Below, piece by piece: positions 40,130-47,672 of a DNA stretch of 64,000 nt. A program made the position numbers and the translations under genes. Each line of letters opens with the position of its first letter. Positions within the stretch are counted from its first letter, which is position 1. Origin of the DNA: Candidatus Thorarchaeota archaeon (GTDB lineage: Archaea > Asgardarchaeota > Thorarchaeia > Thorarchaeales > Thorarchaeaceae); the NCBI GenBank assembly GCA_046482545.1, contig JAWOEX010000028.1, positions 1-64,000 on the forward strand, written 5' to 3'. A model generated the notes under the pieces. That model was not told where the DNA came from. It saw only the letters and a list, made by a program, of their open reading frames with translations, and did no database searches.

Positions 40130-40645
40130 TCAGGAAAGGGCCTCTTTTTCTCTCGATGAACGGAACCAAGGAATAGCACCGCCAGCATAGAGAATTTTCT
40201 TCATCAATGCAGGAAGAGGGTTGCCAGATAAGGTGGTTCCAGAATCTTTGATAGTCAATTGTGCTGATTCCAAGGAAATCTCGACCACCGAGCCGTCAGG
40301 GATAGAAGATGCTTCATCAAGCTGCATTATAGGCAATCCGATATTGATTGCATTTCGGTAGAATATTCGAGCAAATGACTCGGCGACTACGCAACCGACT
40401 CCCACTTCTTTCAGCACTTGAGGAGCTTCCTCTCTTGACGAACCCCCCCCGAAATTCTTGCCTGCAACAATGACATCACCCTTGTTTACTTCATCGGCGA
40501 ATTCGGGTCTCGGAATTTCCAATGTATGCTTCGCCATTTTCGAATAATCCAAGCATGTGAGATAGCGCCCTTGGATTATCTGGTCAGTATCGACATTATC
40601 GCCAAAAACCCATGCCCGGCCTTCTATGCTGTCATATTCTGTCAT
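40130..40645 (-). CDS. 3-isopropylmalate dehydratase / homoaconitase small subunit (LeuD/HacB family)
   Basis: GDNVDTDQII, NFGGGSSREEA, SFARIFYRNAINIGL. Confidence 0.93.
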   Translation of the reverse strand: MTEYDSIEGRAWVFGDNVDTDQIIQGRYLTCLDYSKMAKHTLEIPRPEFADEVNKGDVIVAGKNFGGGSSREEAPQVLKEVGVGCVVAESFARIFYRNAINIGLPIMQLDEASSIPDGSVVEISLESAQLTIKDSGTTLSGNPLPALMKKILYAGGAIPWFRSSREKEALS

Positions 40646-40647
40646 GC

Positions 40648-41919
40648 CTAAGACCTCCTCGGATCGGTAATCTCGCCCTCTAGGGCACTTGCTGCAACTG
40701 TCGCCGGAGAAGCGAGGTACACAAGAGAATCCTGATGCCCCATTCGCCCTCTGAAATTGCGATTGGTGCTAGATATGCTTACTTCACCAGCGCCCAGAAC
40801 ACCCAAGTGTCCACCAATGCAAGCTCCACATGTTGAATTAGTAATCACAGCACCTGCCCGCAAGAGGGTTTCGAGCATTCCTGATTGCATTGCCTTAAGG
40901 TATACCTCAGTACTAGCAGGAGTAACTATGAATCGTGTATCACAGTGGACTTCTTTGCCCTCAACGATTTCTGCTGCGATTTTCAAGTCCTCTAATCTTC
41001 CGTTCGTACATGAGCCAATGAAAGCCTGATCCACCGGTTGCCCCTCCACCTCGGAAACTGGTTTCCCGTTAGATGGACTGTGTGGTGTGGCGACAAACGG
41101 TGCTAACGGTTCGCCTTCAAGGTCAACTGTGAGGTTATCAACATATTCAGCATCGTCGTCAGGTTCTATCGGTGACCACTTAGCATCAGGTGCCCTTTGA
41201 CCAATCCATTTGCGAACTGCTGAATTAGCGGTCATCATAGTGCATTTTGCACCGGCTTCAACGCCCATATTGCACATTGTCATTCTCGAAGCAACAGACA
41301 TCGAGTCTATCAGGGAGCCAAGGATTTCAATTGATTGATAATTTGCGCCATCAGAACCAAGTTCCGCAATTATCTTGAGAATCAGGTCCTTGCTCATGAC
41401 TCTCTCCGACAGCTCCCCTGTTATGTCTATACGAATGGACTCAGGCACTCTGAACCAATTGCGCCCAGTGGCGGCGATAATTGCACTATCGGTAATAGCA
41501 AAACCGGTCGAGAAAGCATTGAACGCTCCATAGGTTGTAGTATGAGAATCTGAACCGACAATCAAATCTCCGGGTTTCACCAGTCCTTTCTCCGGAAGAA
41601 CCTGATGTGCTATTCCGCAATTCACATCGCAGAAATTACTTATTTCTTGGTCTTTCACGAATTGCCTGATTCTGCTATGCATCTCCGCAGTGCTTGCATC
41701 TGGAGCTGGAGACCAATGATCATTCGCAACCAAGATACTTTCTGAATCCCAGACTTCCTCGACCCCCATCTTGCCAAGAACAGGAATGATCCTTGCTAGC
41801 GCCTCGTTGACCATCAGGAAATCAACATCCGCAATAACAGTCTCACCAGCTCTTGCTTTTCCAGATTCCGTGTGATCTGCAAGTATCTTTTCAGCAAGTG
41901 TAAGGCCCAGTATTTTCAC
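40648..41919 (-). CDS. 3-isopropylmalate dehydratase / homoaconitase large subunit (LeuC/HacA family)
   Basis: DSHTTTYGA, GSCTNGR, CGACIG, NRNFRGRMG, LASP. Confidence 0.93.
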   Translation of the reverse strand: MKILGLTLAEKILADHTESGKARAGETVIADVDFLMVNEALARIIPVLGKMGVEEVWDSESILVANDHWSPAPDASTAEMHSRIRQFVKDQEISNFCDVNCGIAHQVLPEKGLVKPGDLIVGSDSHTTTYGAFNAFSTGFAITDSAIIAATGRNWFRVPESIRIDITGELSERVMSKDLILKIIAELGSDGANYQSIEILGSLIDSMSVASRMTMCNMGVEAGAKCTMMTANSAVRKWIGQRAPDAKWSPIEPDDDAEYVDNLTVDLEGEPLAPFVATPHSPSNGKPVSEVEGQPVDQAFIGSCTNGRLEDLKIAAEIVEGKEVHCDTRFIVTPASTEVYLKAMQSGMLETLLRAGAVITNSTCGACIGGHLGVLGAGEVSISSTNRNFRGRMGHQDSLVYLASPATVAASALEGEITDPRRS

Positions 41920-43067
41920 CCCTCAGTATTCATTGCGTTAATGACGGCATCGCTCACATCCTTGGTTGTTGAAGGTTGAATTTTCTTCCACTCCCCTCTA
42001 CACAAATCTGGTGTACGAATTTTCCCTTTCTTCAGCACATCTTCCACTGCATCCTTGATGACAATAGATGCCTCTCTGCACCGTTTATCATTCCGTTTTG
42101 AGCCAAGCCAATCGTACAGCATTGATACAGAGAGAATGGATGCAATTGGATTAGCCGTATTCTGTCCCGCGATATCAGGAGCTGAACCATGCACCGGTTC
42201 AAACATGGCCTGTGTCTCTCCAATGTTCCCTGACGGTGCCATACCAAGACCACCCTGAAGTGCTCCTGCCAAATCGCTGATAATGTCTCCAAACATGTTC
42301 GGGGCTACAAGCACATCATAGAATTCGGGCTTAGTTAATGCCCAGAGGGTCCAGGCATCTACATAGGCAAAATCGGGTTCGATGTTCGGATATCTTTTGG
42401 CTGTTTCTTTGAATACAGTCCGGAAAAGATCACACCCAGCAAGCATGTTGCTCTTGTCGACACATGTTACTCGGCTCCGCCCATCTAGTGGGGCACCGTT
42501 ACGCTGGCTGCAGGAATCGAAAGCGTACTTGATAATCCGGGTTGAGCCTTTCTTAGTAATCACACGAGAATCCACTGCGACTTCTGTTTCTCCACCCCTT
42601 TTCAGAGCTCCCCGGGTAGGTGCATATAGGCCCTCGGTATTCTCCCTTATTACAAGCATATCGATATCCTTGTGACTTTTCTCAGCCAAAGGCGTGGGGA
42701 CACCCTCGTAGAGCTTAGCAGGACGATGATTAGCATAAAGGTCAAGTTCTTGTCTTAGGCCAATTACTATGTTATGACCAGCATGCTTTCCATCAGGCAG
42801 TCTAACTGGTTGGCCCTTCGAGTCAAAGGCTCCGACAGCACCAAAGAGAATCGCATCTGCTTCTGTCTTCGTGAACTTCTCAGCTTCACTAGACCATTCT
42901 CGACCCTGTTTTGCATAGATTTCGCCGCCTACAGAGAATGATTGCTCTTCAATAGTGAATCCTCCCACTATTGATCGGGCTTCACGCATGGCCCGTACGG
43001 CCTCAGGAATCACCTCTCTACCTATACCATCTCCTGGAAGCACGGCCACTTTGTACGTTCTAGCCAA
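41916..43067 (-). CDS. Isocitrate/isopropylmalate-family decarboxylating dehydrogenase
   Basis: [43 protein letters not shown]. Confidence 0.93.
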
Positions 43068-43449: not shown

Positions 43450-43686
43450 TTAATCAGTCATTTTACATCGCATTAGAAGAATTGACGTAGCTCTTTATCT
43501 TAACAAGGTCTCGAAGAAAAGCACTTAGGAGTACGGGTCGAGACATTTCTAGTGGGTACAGGTGGAGCAATCTTGATGTATCTCATTTCCGTATACACTG
43601 GTGCATCGCCGTAGAAGCGATATACACTCAAGAGGTGCAAGTTTTACAAAAATCCTAAAAAATCTTGGTGCAGAAGTGTAGAAGAT

Positions 43687-44161
43687 CTGTAAGATTTCCT
43701 GCAAGCCCGTTTCGGGCAACAAACGAGAGGAGTTTATCAGGTCTAGTACGGAACCCGGGTCCAGTAGGACTAGGCAAGTGGGCTAGTGCTGTGCACGACG
43801 CACGCGGCCGAAGGCTGTGAGGAAGACCCCGTCTTCTAAGCAGAAGTCCTCACTCTCCAAACAAAGGTCCTCATCAGGCCCTGGAGAGTCCGCGGCTGTT
43901 CGCTTTGTCCAACTGGACCTGTCCAGCTTTGGTGACGAAGCCGGGCAGAGCGATAATAACCCCGCCGTGGCAAAAGCTGCGGGAACACTCGTTGCCCCCG
44001 GATGTGATGTATCCGGGTCAGGGCAGGAGACAGAAGCCGAGACCGCAAGAGGGACCGTGTCCTGATGATGGCGGCCAAAGTCTTTGCTTGGCCGGGGGTA
44101 GCGCTCCGGTATGGCGGCGACGCTGGGCAGGGGAAGGGTGGAACACAGGAGTCTCATGCAG
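43687..44161 (+). ncRNA. Large structured non-coding RNA candidate (~475 nt), family unassigned
   Basis: 61% GC over 43741-44160 versus AT-rich flanks. Terminal helix 43687-43701/44146-44161, more than 10 consecutive hairpins, GNRA loops, and G-U pairs that only work on the + strand. Confidence 0.75.
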
Positions 44162-44262
44162 TTGCTAAAACTGTAAGAAACGGGTTATCAAGAGAGAGTT
44201 ACATATAGTGATGCTTTAATAATCTACTAGGGGACGCATATGCAATAGAATGAGGCCTTTTC

Positions 44263-45180
44263 ATGTCCAGGACGAGAGAAGACTTCAAAAAGGCTTTTAA
44301 TCAAAGACTCAAAGCAGCAACAGAAGATGAGCTCCGGATTGTTATAAAGGAGCAATATAGAGAAGCATTTGATGTACTTACAGATTGTGAAAACGCAGGC
44401 CTCATACCGGGAATCATTGGCCCGCCTGGTGTGGGAAAAACTTTGCTTCTTAGAGCATACGCAAAAGAAAGTGGTAGGGATTTCCACTGGGTGACAGGTG
44501 ATGAAGGAGTCCGCCCATCGCATCTTGTGGGATCCTATAATCCCGCGCTGGTTTTGGACAGCGGTTTCAACCTCGATTCGTTCGATCCTGGCCCGTTATT
44601 GAAGTGCATGGTTTTCGGCGGGGTATTTGGATTGAATGAAGCGAATCGACTACCAGAGTATGTGCAAAACTCACTTCTAGAACCGCTTGAAGAAAGGATG
44701 GTTAGTGTTCCGAGAATTGGACGCATTGTCGCAGACGAAGAGTTCTTTGCAGTATTGACCATGAACCCCGAAGAGATGGCCGGAGCCCATAGACTGAGCG
44801 AAGCACTCAGGGACAGGATTCGTGTATGGATTCGCCTAGGATATCCAAGAAAGGAAACAGAAATTGAAATTGTAAAAGTCAACTGCCCGGAATACAAGCT
44901 ATCAGACCATATGCTTGAAACTATTTACAACCTCGTATCTTCTACCAGACAATCCACCGATATCGAAATTCCCGCATCGATTAGAGCAGGGATTTCTATT
45001 GCTAGGCTATCTGCTGAGATGGGAGAGAGAAAAGGGCAGAAGGAAATAACTCATACTACACTCTCTGAAGCAGCAAACTATGTACTTAGTGGAGCGCTTA
45101 GATTCAGACCAGGTGTTGATTCCGAAAATGCTGTAAACCGCATTATTAGGTCAACCATTGGAGGGAGAGAGGTTAGCTAA
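44263..45180 (+). CDS. MoxR-family AAA+ ATPase (CoxD-like)
   Basis: Walker A GPPGVGKT, Walker B variant LNEANR, LTMNP, LSEALRDR, LGYP, ASIRA (sensor II). Confidence 0.92.
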   Translation: MSRTREDFKKAFNQRLKAATEDELRIVIKEQYREAFDVLTDCENAGLIPGIIGPPGVGKTLLLRAYAKESGRDFHWVTGDEGVRPSHLVGSYNPALVLDSGFNLDSFDPGPLLKCMVFGGVFGLNEANRLPEYVQNSLLEPLEERMVSVPRIGRIVADEEFFAVLTMNPEEMAGAHRLSEALRDRIRVWIRLGYPRKETEIEIVKVNCPEYKLSDHMLETIYNLVSSTRQSTDIEIPASIRAGISIARLSAEMGERKGQKEITHTTLSEAANYVLSGALRFRPGVDSENAVNRIIRSTIGGREVS

Positions 45181-45182
45181 TA

Positions 45183-47672
45183 ATGGGTGCCAAAGCGAAA
45201 ACAGACCCCATTCCCAGTTTGGTTGTCGAATTCGCACATGAGTTCGTTATTCGTATGAGAGCACGTCATGACATTGTTGAGAAACCAAGCATAAGACAAA
45301 CCGAATCTATTCCGCGATTCTTGAGCGCCCGCTATTTCAAACAGGGCAAACTCAGTCTCGATGATCTAGTTGAAGCAGCCGTATATACAACATTCCCAGG
45401 AGATCAAAAAATAGCAAGAGACGTAGCTGAAGACATTGTACTTGGGCGTGAAGAAAAGGAAGAAGCTGTTCCATCGCCGCGACCTCAAAAAAAGAAGGCG
45501 AAAGAAGCAGCAAGCTCAGATTCACTTAGAGACGTTATCAAGACCATACTGCGAGAACAAGAGCTGTCCAATCAAATTGAATCCGACAAGATAGCAGACG
45601 GCTATAGCTATCTACGAGAACTGAAGAAATCAGGCAAGAATGAATTATTTGATTCGGCCACTGATTATCTAACGGAAGGGGACATAGTTTTACGTGGCAT
45701 TTCAAGTGACACTCAATTAAAACAGCAAGCATCACAGGAACTCCTAGAAAGACGTGGGGGGCTCAGCTCCAGGGATATCCAGAACTCGAAAACTTTGGGC
45801 AGTCTAGATGAGGTCTGTAAATCGCACAGCCGCGCTGAATCCCTAGCAGCAAAGGCATTACGCGGTGATTCGGATGTATCGAACAAATTCAGGGACTTAG
45901 CTGGACGAGATCCTGCAACCGCAGCTCGAGCTTTGTCTCATATGAGAGACATTGGAGCTCCAAAAGAGGCTACTCAGGATTCCATGAAGCAGAACCTAAT
46001 TGACTCAGTTCGCAATCTTGAGGAGATGGCTTCTTATGCATCTAATCTCAGTGAATTACCCGACAACAGCGATTCTCACCTTCAATCGGCCCCACAGGAA
46101 TTCCCCATTGCAGAAGCGCTTAGAATGGCAGAACGAATCAAGCAACATACAAAACAATCCCTTCAGGATCAATTGATGAAAGAATACGATTCTCAGTTCT
46201 CGCAGGGTGCTTCAAGAAATGTTGATAATCAGCAGCTTGCGAGAAATTCCATGTCAGGATGTCACTGGAAGAACTTGGTTAAGAAAGTCACAGATAGGAC
46301 AATAGGGCAATCTGCCTCACGCTCAGCTCCTAGTGAGTATCTTCTCAAGAAGCTGGCACAGCAATACAAGCTAAGCAAAGAGCTATCATCTGATTGTAGG
46401 ACTACTTGGAAGGACCAAATGCAACAGATAGCCGATGAAGCCATTTCTCATTCACAGTCAAAAGCACATATGAGAAGGAATGTGAGAAGGTCACGAAGAA
46501 TGGATACCAATCCCTCAGACGAATCCATTCGTCAACGAGGTAAGGAGCTAGGAATGAGCGAGAATGAGATTCTTGAACTTGTTAATCCTTCCTTTGAAGC
46601 TGCAAAGAAATTGATTAAGAAAGGCGTAAAGGATTTCGACAGACTACATGGACTGATATCATCAGCGGGACTCACTTCTTCTCAGCTCCAAGAACTAGCT
46701 GAATTGGCAAACCAAATGGGGAGTGCGTCAGCCCTAGGAGCAATCGGACAACTGAATCTTCCAGCTGCACTCGGAATGGGGCGTCCCGGCAGAGAACCTA
46801 ATGAAGAAAGAGCTAATATGGTGCTGAGAGGATTGCTTGGGGGACCCGCGACCAACATCCTGCGAACATGGTATACCTACCGAGACAGCCTTCCACCAGA
46901 CTTCAAGAAAAAGCTGAAACAGATTGCACGACGTCTTTTGATAGACTTGGGGAAGAATTCTGCCCGATCTGTTCTTGGGTCCTCAACTCTAGGAGGCATT
47001 CAACCATCAACGACAGTTCGTCCATTCCGAATTGGGGATGATATCGATCTCATAGATTTGGAGGAAACGCTCTCGTACCTTTTGTCTGAAGGGCGCACAG
47101 ATTTCCGCACATTGCGACCGGATGATTTTCTAATCACAGAAACTTACCATGGTCACAGAGCGTTTTATTGGGCTCTTGATAAGAGCGGCTCGATGGATGA
47201 TTCTCAGAAACTAGGAATGATTTCAATTTCTGTCATGGCAGGTCTCTATGGCATACAAAAGGATGATTTTGGTGTTGTGTTATTTGATGATGCCACGCAC
47301 AAAGTCAAGGAAATATCTGATAAGATTAAATCAGTTGAAAAAGTGGCATCCGACCTTCTCGATCTCCGCGCCAGTGGTGGTACCGGTGGCTCCGGCTCCA
47401 TTCGTTTGGCTATCCAGAATTTCGAACAAACTAGGGCCAGAGAAAAAATATTTATTTTCTGCACAGATGTATATCTGAGTGACCAATCAGCATGCGTTGA
47501 CTTAATGGGCAAAGTAAAGAAGAAAGGGATAGACACAATTATTCTAGTGCCGGCAGGCCAGTACGACCATCAATCAGCGGAGCAATTAGCCAAGGCCTCC
47601 CACGGTGTTGTGCTGGATATCGATTCCATAGATGACTTGCCTAATAGACTACTGCGGCTCACGAGCTACTGA
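45183..47672 (+). CDS. Large VWA-domain partner of MoxR (AAA-lid-like N-terminus, long helical middle, C-terminal VWA)
   Basis: VRPFRIGDDIDLIDLEETL, MIDAS DKSGSM, GGT, FCTD. Confidence 0.88.
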   Translation: MGAKAKTDPIPSLVVEFAHEFVIRMRARHDIVEKPSIRQTESIPRFLSARYFKQGKLSLDDLVEAAVYTTFPGDQKIARDVAEDIVLGREEKEEAVPSPRPQKKKAKEAASSDSLRDVIKTILREQELSNQIESDKIADGYSYLRELKKSGKNELFDSATDYLTEGDIVLRGISSDTQLKQQASQELLERRGGLSSRDIQNSKTLGSLDEVCKSHSRAESLAAKALRGDSDVSNKFRDLAGRDPATAARALSHMRDIGAPKEATQDSMKQNLIDSVRNLEEMASYASNLSELPDNSDSHLQSAPQEFPIAEALRMAERIKQHTKQSLQDQLMKEYDSQFSQGASRNVDNQQLARNSMSGCHWKNLVKKVTDRTIGQSASRSAPSEYLLKKLAQQYKLSKELSSDCRTTWKDQMQQIADEAISHSQSKAHMRRNVRRSRRMDTNPSDESIRQRGKELGMSENEILELVNPSFEAAKKLIKKGVKDFDRLHGLISSAGLTSSQLQELAELANQMGSASALGAIGQLNLPAALGMGRPGREPNEERANMVLRGLLGGPATNILRTWYTYRDSLPPDFKKKLKQIARRLLIDLGKNSARSVLGSSTLGGIQPSTTVRPFRIGDDIDLIDLEETLSYLLSEGRTDFRTLRPDDFLITETYHGHRAFYWALDKSGSMDDSQKLGMISISVMAGLYGIQKDDFGVVLFDDATHKVKEISDKIKSVEKVASDLLDLRASGGTGGSGSIRLAIQNFEQTRAREKIFIFCTDVYLSDQSACVDLMGKVKKKGIDTIILVPAGQYDHQSAEQLAKASHGVVLDIDSIDDLPNRLLRLTSY

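What the first reader, a model, noticed from the sequence alone, without database searches (positions are those of the whole stretch)
43687..44161. Large, ornate structured ncRNA candidate (~475 nt) of no recognisable class
Seen: a 61% GC island (256/420 nt over 43741-44160) in an AT-rich intergenic gap. The ends pair (CTGTAAGATTTCCTG 43687-43701 with CAGGAGTCTCATGCAG 44146-44161). Inside is a continuous series of helices: 43705-43717; GTCTAGT/ACTAGGC 43741-43775; 43791-43803; 43804-43818; GTGAGGA/TCCTCAC 43817-43853; ACTCTCCA/TGGAGAGT 43852-43889; CGCTTTGTCC/GGGCAGAGCG 43901-43952, enclosing a GUGA tetraloop hairpin; 43965-43982; 43993-44025; a GCAA loop near 44045; GGCCAA/TTGGCC 44073-44093; and 44099-44125. 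Many stems contain G-U pairs valid only on the + strand, which points to selection at the RNA level. The canonical RNase P (GAGGAAAGUCC), SRP helix 8, group II domain V, tRNA and rRNA signatures were not found. Inference: a previously undescribed large archaeal RNA (ribozyme, RNP scaffold or regulatory leader).
Basis: partly seen in the sequence, partly recalled or inferred. Interest (0 to 1): 0.92.

Follow-up and report, generated by a model that had tools for sequence, protein, structure and literature searches.

The report
Mini-transposon carrying oversized TnpB guide RNA
The folded stretch is most likely the unusually large (about 425-base) guide-RNA scaffold of a transposon nuclease (TnpB), carried by a gene-less mini-transposon present dozens of times in this Asgard archaeon; the parent element was noted before by computer, but its RNA is not in Rfam.

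Summary
The structure is real, but this is not a single-copy orphan RNA. It lies in a 554-bp element (43634-44187) flanked by a duplicated TCAAGA. This Thorarchaeote has 35 near-complete copies and about 100 pieces, and the orthologous site in two congeners is empty. The same ends bound 8.2-8.3-kb elements encoding a giant Cas1-fold protein and a RuvC-rearranged TnpB; the RNA overlaps the last ~110 tnpB codons. Across 81 copies, 132 consensus pairs show 257 compensatory events (controls 19-38); G-U outnumbers A-C 3:1. In relatives, the bases just behind the RNA are often tRNA or 16S fragments, frequently matching intron-less alleles. This places the guide at 44188 onward and suggests a purine at TAM position -3. 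Best reading: a TnpB omegaRNA (~43763-44187) in a PATE/MITE-like cassette of the Asgard aCas1-TnpB element (Altae-Tran 2023). Expression and activity are untested; this copy has a weakened TATA, lacks the conserved UCACUC loop and may be a relic. The scan already reported this on other copies and genomes. Added here: tree-based covariation, the TCNNGA duplication, a TAM inference, and evidence that the published 'hypervariable guide' is a hairpin stem.

The parts
43628..43633 (+). Left copy of the duplicated hexamer TCAAGA (family consensus TCNNGA)
   Evidence: Same hexamer at 44188-93; one hexamer-equivalent at the colinear empty site in G001/G002; 19 of 27 paired ends identical vs 3.4 in shuffles
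43634..43703 (+). Transposon left end: T(C/T)TTACA motif and repeated TGTA(A/G)(G/A)A motifs, imperfectly inverted to the right end
   Evidence: 59 left-end HMM hits in the genome; 81-84% identical to the left ends of the 8.2-8.3-kb elements
43704..43762 (+). 5' module of the mini-element with purine-rich box and TATA-like box 43733-43740 (TTTATCAG; family consensus TTTATTAG); inferred start near 43763
   Evidence: Box at -34 from GGACTAGG: perfect match in 21/40 mini-elements and 6-7 of 7 in 35/40; a weaker box at -36 in tnpB-linked loci (4/36 and 19/36). Promoter function is inferred.
43763..44187 (+). Predicted omegaRNA scaffold, about 425 nt, 22 consensus helices
   Evidence: 257 compensatory events on 132 pairs vs 23-38 (slid) and 19+-5 (matched random); this copy keeps 98 of 100 well-supported pairs
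43802..44065 (+). Remnant of the tnpB 3' coding tail (residues 473-559, past RuvC-III), overlapped by the RNA
   Evidence: tblastn 84% identity; ORF 43817-44065; stop codons inside other copies
43872..44009 (+). Candidate kissing-loop pair CAUCA (43872-76) with UGAUG (44005-09)
   Evidence: 94% canonical in 81 sequences but only about 1 compensatory event: conserved, not proven
44157..44187 (+). Terminal hairpin and right end (CTGTAAGA...GGGTTA); this copy has a short loop without the UCACUC motif
   Evidence: 88 right-end hits; motif in 30/36 tnpB-linked but 13/45 mini-element copies
44188..44207 (+). Right hexamer TCAAGA (44188-93) and host flank; predicted guide segment
   Evidence: Conservation ends at 44187; the equivalent position holds tRNA/16S fragments in relatives; the flank is colinear with the empty site

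Best explanation
The region is the omegaRNA (reRNA) scaffold of a Thorarchaeota TnpB nuclease, carried in a non-autonomous mini-transposon made by internal deletion of an 8-kb aCas1-TnpB element. SHOWN: multi-copy element with defined ends; 6-bp TCNNGA duplication; empty orthologous site; descent from the tnpB 3' end; + strand covariation; Cas1 fold and invariant E/H/D/D residues in the giant partner; TnpB with D242, Gly345 in place of the RuvC-II Glu, an alternative E403, and D437. INFERRED: a TATA box drives transcription from about 43763 through the right end into the flank; TnpB made by one of the five full-length tnpB frames in the genome binds the scaffold in trans; the first 15-21 flank bases guide it to an empty copy of the same site behind a 5'-RAN-like TAM; the cut is repaired from the occupied allele, which keeps or spreads the insertion, while the occupied allele is spared because its element end reads TTA. 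INFERRED, weaker: the aCas1 domain is the integrase that moves the ends into TCNNGA sites. This particular copy may be partly or wholly inactive.
For: Homology and position. TnpB identity: Pfam PF07282 above cut-off, and TnpB/Cas12f structures as best sequence matches; motifs conserved in 29 loci. Copies and ends; empty site. RNA-level selection; with pairs chosen from tnpB-linked loci only, mini-element copies still show 181 G-U vs 68 A-C and 178 alternative Watson-Crick pairs. Guide position: 14 of 46 relatives' loci have a tRNA fragment right behind the RNA end (0/138 shuffles, 2/45 downstream controls), and seven carry 16S fragments. Target side: purine at -3 in 40/47 insertion sites and T in 0/47 (13.8 expected), with no mirror bias downstream; purine at -3 in nearly all tRNA/16S targets read by eye. 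aCas1: the top 12 structural matches are all Cas1, Z 8.8-13.2, next 6.6; no serine or tyrosine recombinase found in this 98.9% complete genome. Precedent: PATEs that encode omegaRNAs used in trans (PMC10055086); aCas1-TnpB loci (PMC10691335).
Against: No expression, binding or cleavage data. This copy has a variant TATA, lacks the UCACUC loop kept by 30/36 tnpB-linked copies, lacks the extra 5' hairpin of tnpB-linked copies, and its left flank reads CAC (no purine at -3). Mini-elements and tnpB-linked copies interleave in the tree, so some covariation on mini-element branches may be imported. A strict tree-shuffling G-test left only 6 pairs at E<0.05. The structure was predicted from the same alignment it was tested on. 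The -3 purine bias could be an integrase preference. In another Thorarchaeota group aCas1 travels with an IS607 serine recombinase, so aCas1 need not be the transposase. Pfam Cas1 does not detect the domain, and its Foldseek E-values are only about 4e-3.
Confidence: 0.8

Rival explanations
1. Same origin, but the gene-less copies (this one included) are dead passengers: only tnpB-linked copies make working RNA, and the mini-elements spread because they keep both DNA ends.
For: UCACUC loop missing in 32/45 mini-elements; tip branches of mini-elements have fewer compensatory double changes than tnpB-linked tips (23 vs 90 for similar unpaired change) and more pair-breaking changes; variant TATA and non-consensus -3 base here.
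Against: TATA-like box at a fixed distance in 35/40 mini-elements; G-U over A-C on mini-element-only branches (124:60 on tips, 33:10 internal; 181:68 with independently chosen pairs); most copies keep the whole 425-nt core although only the ends should be needed to move.
Confidence: 0.3
2. The RNA-TnpB complex also steers the aCas1 integrase (CAST-like targeting), or aCas1 adds new guides behind the scaffold (a proto-CRISPR mini-array).
For: In relatives without the TCNNGA-type ends, the guide often matches the tRNA or 16S gene beside which the element sits, sometimes in inverted orientation, which a target duplication cannot give; 2-3 tandem units of a short CAGGTC(G/A) repeat plus a 16S fragment; strict head-to-head pairing of aCas1 and tnpB.
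Against: The distance and orientation from matched site to element vary from tens to hundreds of bases; the TnpB keeps all catalytic residues; cutting of intron-less alleles with repair from the linked allele explains the pattern without guided integration; in this genome the guide is simply the flank.
Confidence: 0.15
3. The folds act in single-stranded DNA (transposon end structures or a MITE palindrome), not in RNA.
For: G-T wobble is also tolerated in ssDNA hairpins (own knowledge); mini-elements of 145-410 bp that have lost most of the core still keep both ends.
Against: Those deletions show that the core is not needed between the ends; the core overlaps the tnpB 3' end as omegaRNAs do; non-TCNNGA lineages keep it too; target-like fragments follow it.
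Confidence: 0.04
4. A self-splicing or self-cleaving ribozyme (group I-like IStron), or a host housekeeping RNA or leader of the MoxR-type gene.
For: GGACU/AGUCC helix with a UAAGCAGA linker resembles the P7 and J8/7 order of group I introns (by eye); C/D-like UGAUGA words.
Against: No Rfam match for this or a tnpB-linked copy even at E<=10; no bulged G-site and no room for P4-P6; RNase P and SRP are present elsewhere; absent at the orthologous locus of two congeners.
Confidence: 0.03

Closest known systems
aCas1-associated TnpB loci of Asgard archaea (Cas1H-Asgard-1/-2; Altae-Tran et al. 2023, PMC10691335; Makarova et al. 2020, not readable here)
   Same: Asgard host, Cas1-fold giant partner, TnpB, and the GTTCACTCA motif downstream of tnpB with a conserved T before a variable stretch.
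   Different: In the main text (supplement not held) the paper gives no RNA structure, no mini-elements and no target duplication for these loci. It suggests that the variable stretch before GTTCACTCA may be the guide; here that stretch pairs with the bases after the motif (hairpin with a UCACUC loop), and target-like sequence begins about 15-25 nt later. I could not see the paper's figure, so the match of regions is my reading.
TnpB omegaRNA/reRNA of IS200/IS605 and IS607 elements, including archaeal sotRNAs (RF02656/RF02657; PMC12558985)
   Same: Sense RNA overlapping the tnpB 3' end, ending at the right end, guide taken from the flank, TAM on the left.
   Different: About 425 nt, roughly twice the characterised scaffolds (about 100-250 nt, own knowledge); no Rfam match; RuvC-II-rearranged TnpB with a 125-residue tail under the RNA; no Y1 or serine TnpA in the element; 6-bp duplication.
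PATEs and gene-less omegaRNA-bearing IS derivatives of Geobacillus stearothermophilus (Meers et al., PMC10055086)
   Same: Gene-less multi-copy derivatives that keep both ends and an omegaRNA to be used by TnpB in trans.
   Different: PATEs move by Y1 peel-and-paste with no target duplication; these copies have a TCNNGA duplication, imperfect inverted ends and their own TATA-like box.
Casposons (PMC8464041)
   Same: Cas1-family integrase, inverted ends, target duplication, taste for tRNA genes in related lineages.
   Different: No family B polymerase; 6-bp rather than 13-14-bp duplication; Cas1 domain fused into a 1400-1950-residue protein with a PD-(D/E)xK-like motif; carries TnpB.

Membership tests
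TnpB omegaRNA | Sense overlap with the tnpB 3' end, at the element's right end | tested here: met
TnpB omegaRNA | Cognate TnpB with RuvC triad and zinc finger | tested here: met
   D242, alternative E403 (Gly345 at the canonical site), D437, two CxxC motifs; rearranged type as described in PMC10691335
TnpB omegaRNA | Conserved structured scaffold followed directly by a variable 15-21-nt guide | tested here: met
   Covariation; boundary; tRNA/16S fragments at that position
TnpB omegaRNA | TAM next to the target, absent from the donor end | tested here: inconclusive
   Purine at -3 in 40/47 sites, T in 0/47, donor end TTA; could be integrase bias; this copy reads CAC
TnpB omegaRNA | Expression, binding to TnpB, guided cleavage | not testable with these tools
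   No transcript or assay data
Asgard aCas1-TnpB element | aCas1 gene next to tnpB | tested here: met
   Head-to-head in this genome and many relatives; Cas1 fold; invariant E94, H167, D174, D177 (alignment A2 numbering)
Asgard aCas1-TnpB element | GTTCACTCA motif downstream of tnpB | tested here: met
   30/36 tnpB-linked copies; lost in the window copy
Asgard aCas1-TnpB element | Placement in group Cas1H-Asgard-1 or -2 | not testable with these tools
   Supplement not held
MITE / non-autonomous derivative | Dispersed copies, no transposase, ends shared with a larger element | tested here: met
MITE / non-autonomous derivative | Target duplication and empty orthologous site | tested here: met
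   the hexamer is partly linked to the left-end haplotype, so a shared recombination core is not excluded
MITE / non-autonomous derivative | Terminal inverted repeats | tested here: inconclusive
   Only an imperfect match (T(C/T)TTACA, plus TAAC in some copies) about 10 nt inside each end
IS200/IS605 PATE | Y1 TnpA ends, no target duplication | tested here: not met
   6-bp duplication; the single Y1 locus has no match to these ends
IS607 | Serine recombinase TnpA and GG core | tested here: not met
   None found in this genome; IS607-aCas1 elements of relatives have other left ends and no match to this TnpB
Casposon | Cas1-family integrase | tested here: met
   (fold only; activity untested)
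Casposon | Family B polymerase and 13-14-bp duplication | tested here: not met
   Three ORFs per complete element; bases 7-14 no more alike than chance
Group I intron / IStron | Catalytic core matching the Rfam group I model | tested here: not met
   no P4-P6 room and no bulged G-site in the consensus
RNase P / SRP RNA | Match to RF00373 or RF01857 | tested here: not met
   True genes at C34:21067-21410 and C28:160542-160852

The most novel reading that the evidence does not exclude
The oversized scaffold serves a Cas1-TnpB system that does more than keep its own insertion: it either directs a Cas1-type integrase to chosen sites or lets aCas1 add new guides behind the RNA as a mini-array. In related lineages those guides hit intron-less tRNA and 16S alleles and so spread tiny introns. 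That would be an RNA-guided Cas1 transposon or a living proto-CRISPR in Asgard archaea.
Probability: 0.15. Interest if true: 0.9.

Novelty: new variant of a known kind. Interest (0 to 1): 0.55.

Why it matters
It turns an untested literature note (Asgard aCas1-TnpB loci) into a testable system. It supplies a scaffold with boundaries and a covariation model, a guide start, a candidate TAM, element ends and a 6-bp target. A 425-nt scaffold would be an outlier among TnpB/Cas12 guide RNAs and deserves a structure and an Rfam family. About 1% of this genome consists of these cassettes, each with a different potential guide. If the Cas1 domain is the integrase, this is a Cas1 transposon without a polymerase that travels with a Cas12 ancestor, which bears on how CRISPR adaptation and interference came together. 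The window copy alone is one more copy and may be inactive.

Tried and rejected
Rfam at gathering and E<=10 thresholds: nothing credible. RNase P and SRP: found elsewhere. Group I/IStron reading from a P7-like motif: rejected. A 14-bp casposon-type duplication: bases 7-14 match at chance level (2.5 vs 2.3 of 8). IS607 or tyrosine-recombinase mobilisation: no such gene found in this genome; followed the lead of earlier finding e1-5384079 and found that those IS607-aCas1 elements are a different group. DDE and Y1 transposases of this genome share no end sequence with the element. Pfam, NCBIfam and PDB sequence searches did not name the giant protein; only the fold did. A conservative tree-shuffled G-test gave few significant pairs, so event counting on the tree was used. 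A partner for the UCACUC loop was not established (candidates without covariation). Flank guides of the mini-elements have no perfect second target in the genome: nine matches with 2 mismatches, three of them to left ends of sister copies. No exact core motif in viral contigs (one 19-mer only). The target of the recurring guide GTGCATGCA(G/T)CCG was not found. My test for open tail frames was too strict and is not used. The sigma-70 promoter scan does not apply to archaea. Makarova 2020 was not held.

Full report
Observation. The GC figure is exact (256/420). The + strand folds better than shuffles (z -2.2, against -1.1 for the - strand). Rfam has no match, and RNase P and SRP RNA lie on other contigs. 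Record titles with matching contig lengths identify the relatives as Thorarchaeota.

It is a dispersed repeat. The stretch matches 23 of 36 genomes of the same family, usually at many places, and none of 24 genomes outside it. In the own genome a single-sequence search gives 86 hits, 35 nearly full length. A profile gives 107 pieces covering 34.6 kb, 1.1% of the assembly; a few are duplicated at contig ends. Median identity among full copies is 71%. Conservation runs from 43634 to 44187. The same hexamer, TCAAGA, stands at 43628-33 and 44188-93. Family-wide the hexamer is TCNNGA, identical on both sides in 19 of 27 scorable copies against 3.4 after shuffling. In two congeners the orthologous gap has no element and is colinear with one hexamer-equivalent. 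The hexamer is partly linked to the left-end haplotype (same NN in 44% of pairs with near-identical ends, 12% otherwise), so a shared recombination core rather than a pure duplication stays possible.

The parent element. The same ends bound elements of 8226 and 8296 bp. Each encodes a 1410-1655-residue protein, a short ORF and, head-to-head, a 544-559-residue TnpB. TnpB has D242, Gly345 at the RuvC-II position, an alternative E403 and D437, conserved across 29 loci; this is the rearranged type described in PMC10691335. The first 260 residues of the giant protein fold with pLDDT 91, and their twelve best structural matches are all Cas1 or casposase (Z 8.8-13.2, next 6.6). E, H, D and D are invariant in 29 sequences. 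The two genes co-occur across the family. This fits the aCas1-TnpB loci of Altae-Tran et al., including their GTTCACTCA motif. No serine or tyrosine recombinase was found in this genome. IS607-type aCas1 elements exist in relatives but have other left ends and no match to this TnpB. That weakens, but does not exclude, aCas1 as the transposase.

The RNA. The window copy encodes TnpB residues 473-559 at 84% identity. Homology with intact tnpB loci begins at GGACTAGG (43767). Upstream, mini-elements have their own module with a TATA-like box at -34 (perfect in 21/40, 6-7 of 7 in 35/40), while tnpB-linked loci have a weaker box at -36 and one extra hairpin. A start near 43763 is inferred from archaeal promoter spacing (own knowledge). 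On 81 sequences (mean identity 67%) RNAalifold gives 132 pairs in 22 helices. Parsimony on a tree counts 257 compensatory events, against 23-38 with slid partners and 19+-5 for matched random pairs; G-U outnumbers A-C 1109 to 375. A stricter G-test passes only 6 pairs, and the structure came from the same alignment, so R-scape is still wanted. With pairs chosen from tnpB-linked loci alone, mini-elements still show 181 G-U to 68 A-C. This copy keeps 98 of 100 strong pairs.

Where the guide is. The variable stretch before GTTCACTCA, proposed in the paper as a possible guide, pairs with the bases after the motif in many lineages with different sequences. The bases after the terminal (A/C)GGT(C/T)(A/G) behave like guides. 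In 14 of 46 relatives' loci they match a tRNA gene (0/138 shuffles, 2/45 controls), and seven loci carry 16S fragments, some in tandem units. The resident gene beside the element is often split by a small intron inside the matched site: 16S in G005, G031, G004 and G001, probably G026 (element and 16S on separate contigs), and tRNA-Asp in G035. There are exceptions: G002 has the guide and an intact site, and G005's second guide meets an intact site with a seed mismatch. Some tRNA fragments are plain att-like duplications. Insertion sites in this genome have a purine at -3 in 40/47 cases and never T, with no mirror bias on the right; the element's own end reads TTA. The tRNA and 16S targets, read by eye, mostly have a purine at -3, often GAA.

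Mechanism. Most likely (0.8) the RNA is TnpB's omegaRNA. Transcribed through the right end, it would take its guide from the flank and direct TnpB, supplied in trans, to empty alleles, preserving the insertion by recombination as shown for IS605 elements and proposed for PATEs (PMC10055086). Expression, binding, cutting and the role of aCas1 are inferred. This copy has a variant TATA, no UCACUC loop and a non-consensus -3 base, and mini-elements interleave with tnpB-linked copies in the tree. The chance that the gene-less copies are relics is about 0.3. Guided integration or guide capture by aCas1 remains open (0.15).

Novelty. The element type is in the literature as a computational note, and gene-less omegaRNA carriers are known. 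Three paper searches aimed at this system found no description of this RNA's structure, these mini-elements or the target rule (the library is incomplete). The scan itself has reported the omegaRNA reading for other copies and the 16S guide arrays in other genomes. Verdict: new variant of a known kind, interest 0.55.

Noticed in passing
L163, L160, L154, L153, L114, L115, L146 (behind the omegaRNA); 16S loci L384, L388, L390, L394, L398, L180: aCas1-TnpB elements beside 16S genes carry 1-3 tandem units of CAGGTC(G/A) plus a 16S fragment. Resident 16S genes often have ~30-nt introns inside the matched sites; G002 is an exception. Also reported earlier by the scan.
   Followed up: partly
L104, L110, L128/L173, L106, L108, L109, L112, L113, L130/L175, L158: Guide-position fragments match the tRNA type found beside the element, in either orientation; in L104 and L158 an intron in the resident tRNA splits the seed.
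   Followed up: partly
G000 C28:871 (minus) and L116, L141, L145, L147, L148, L151, L152, L162, L187: Recurring fixed guide GTGCATGCA(G/T)CCG. Six of these loci (five relatives plus the own-genome one) lie near the same acyl-CoA dehydrogenase-like host gene cluster; the target was not found.
   Followed up: partly
L108, L109, L112, L113, just upstream of the tnpB TATA box: A copy of the RNA's 3'-end motif (GAGTGAACTCAACTG...AACAGGTCA) precedes the tnpB promoter, so the promoter itself sits in guide position.
   Followed up: no
window 43492-43635: 3' remnant of a VIT1/CCC1-like membrane gene; the gene is intact at this locus in G001 and G002, and a paralogue lies at C9:300695-301318.
   Followed up: partly
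L350-L358: A second Thorarchaeota group pairs aCas1 giants with an IS607 serine recombinase and GG-core ends; no match to this TnpB nearby.
   Followed up: partly
G000 C18:5190 right flank; C9:359460-359776; C38:29017: Copies insert into or beside other copies; one flank guide matches the left ends of three sister copies with 2 mismatches in 20.
   Followed up: no
alignment of own copies, window 43773-43809 and 44035-44133: Two alternative sequence modules occur in mixed combinations across copies, pointing to recombination or gene conversion among copies.
   Followed up: no
G000 C2:1-380 and C2:2318-2803: The contig starts with a very GC-rich isocitrate dehydrogenase-like stretch fused to a partial 16S gene (possible chimeric assembly); an aCas1 C-terminal remnant lies downstream of this 16S.
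   Followed up: no
window 44263-47672 and 40130-43067: Neighbours are a MoxR-type ATPase plus vWA gene (+) and a leuB/leuC/leuD-like cluster (-); unrelated to the element.
   Followed up: no
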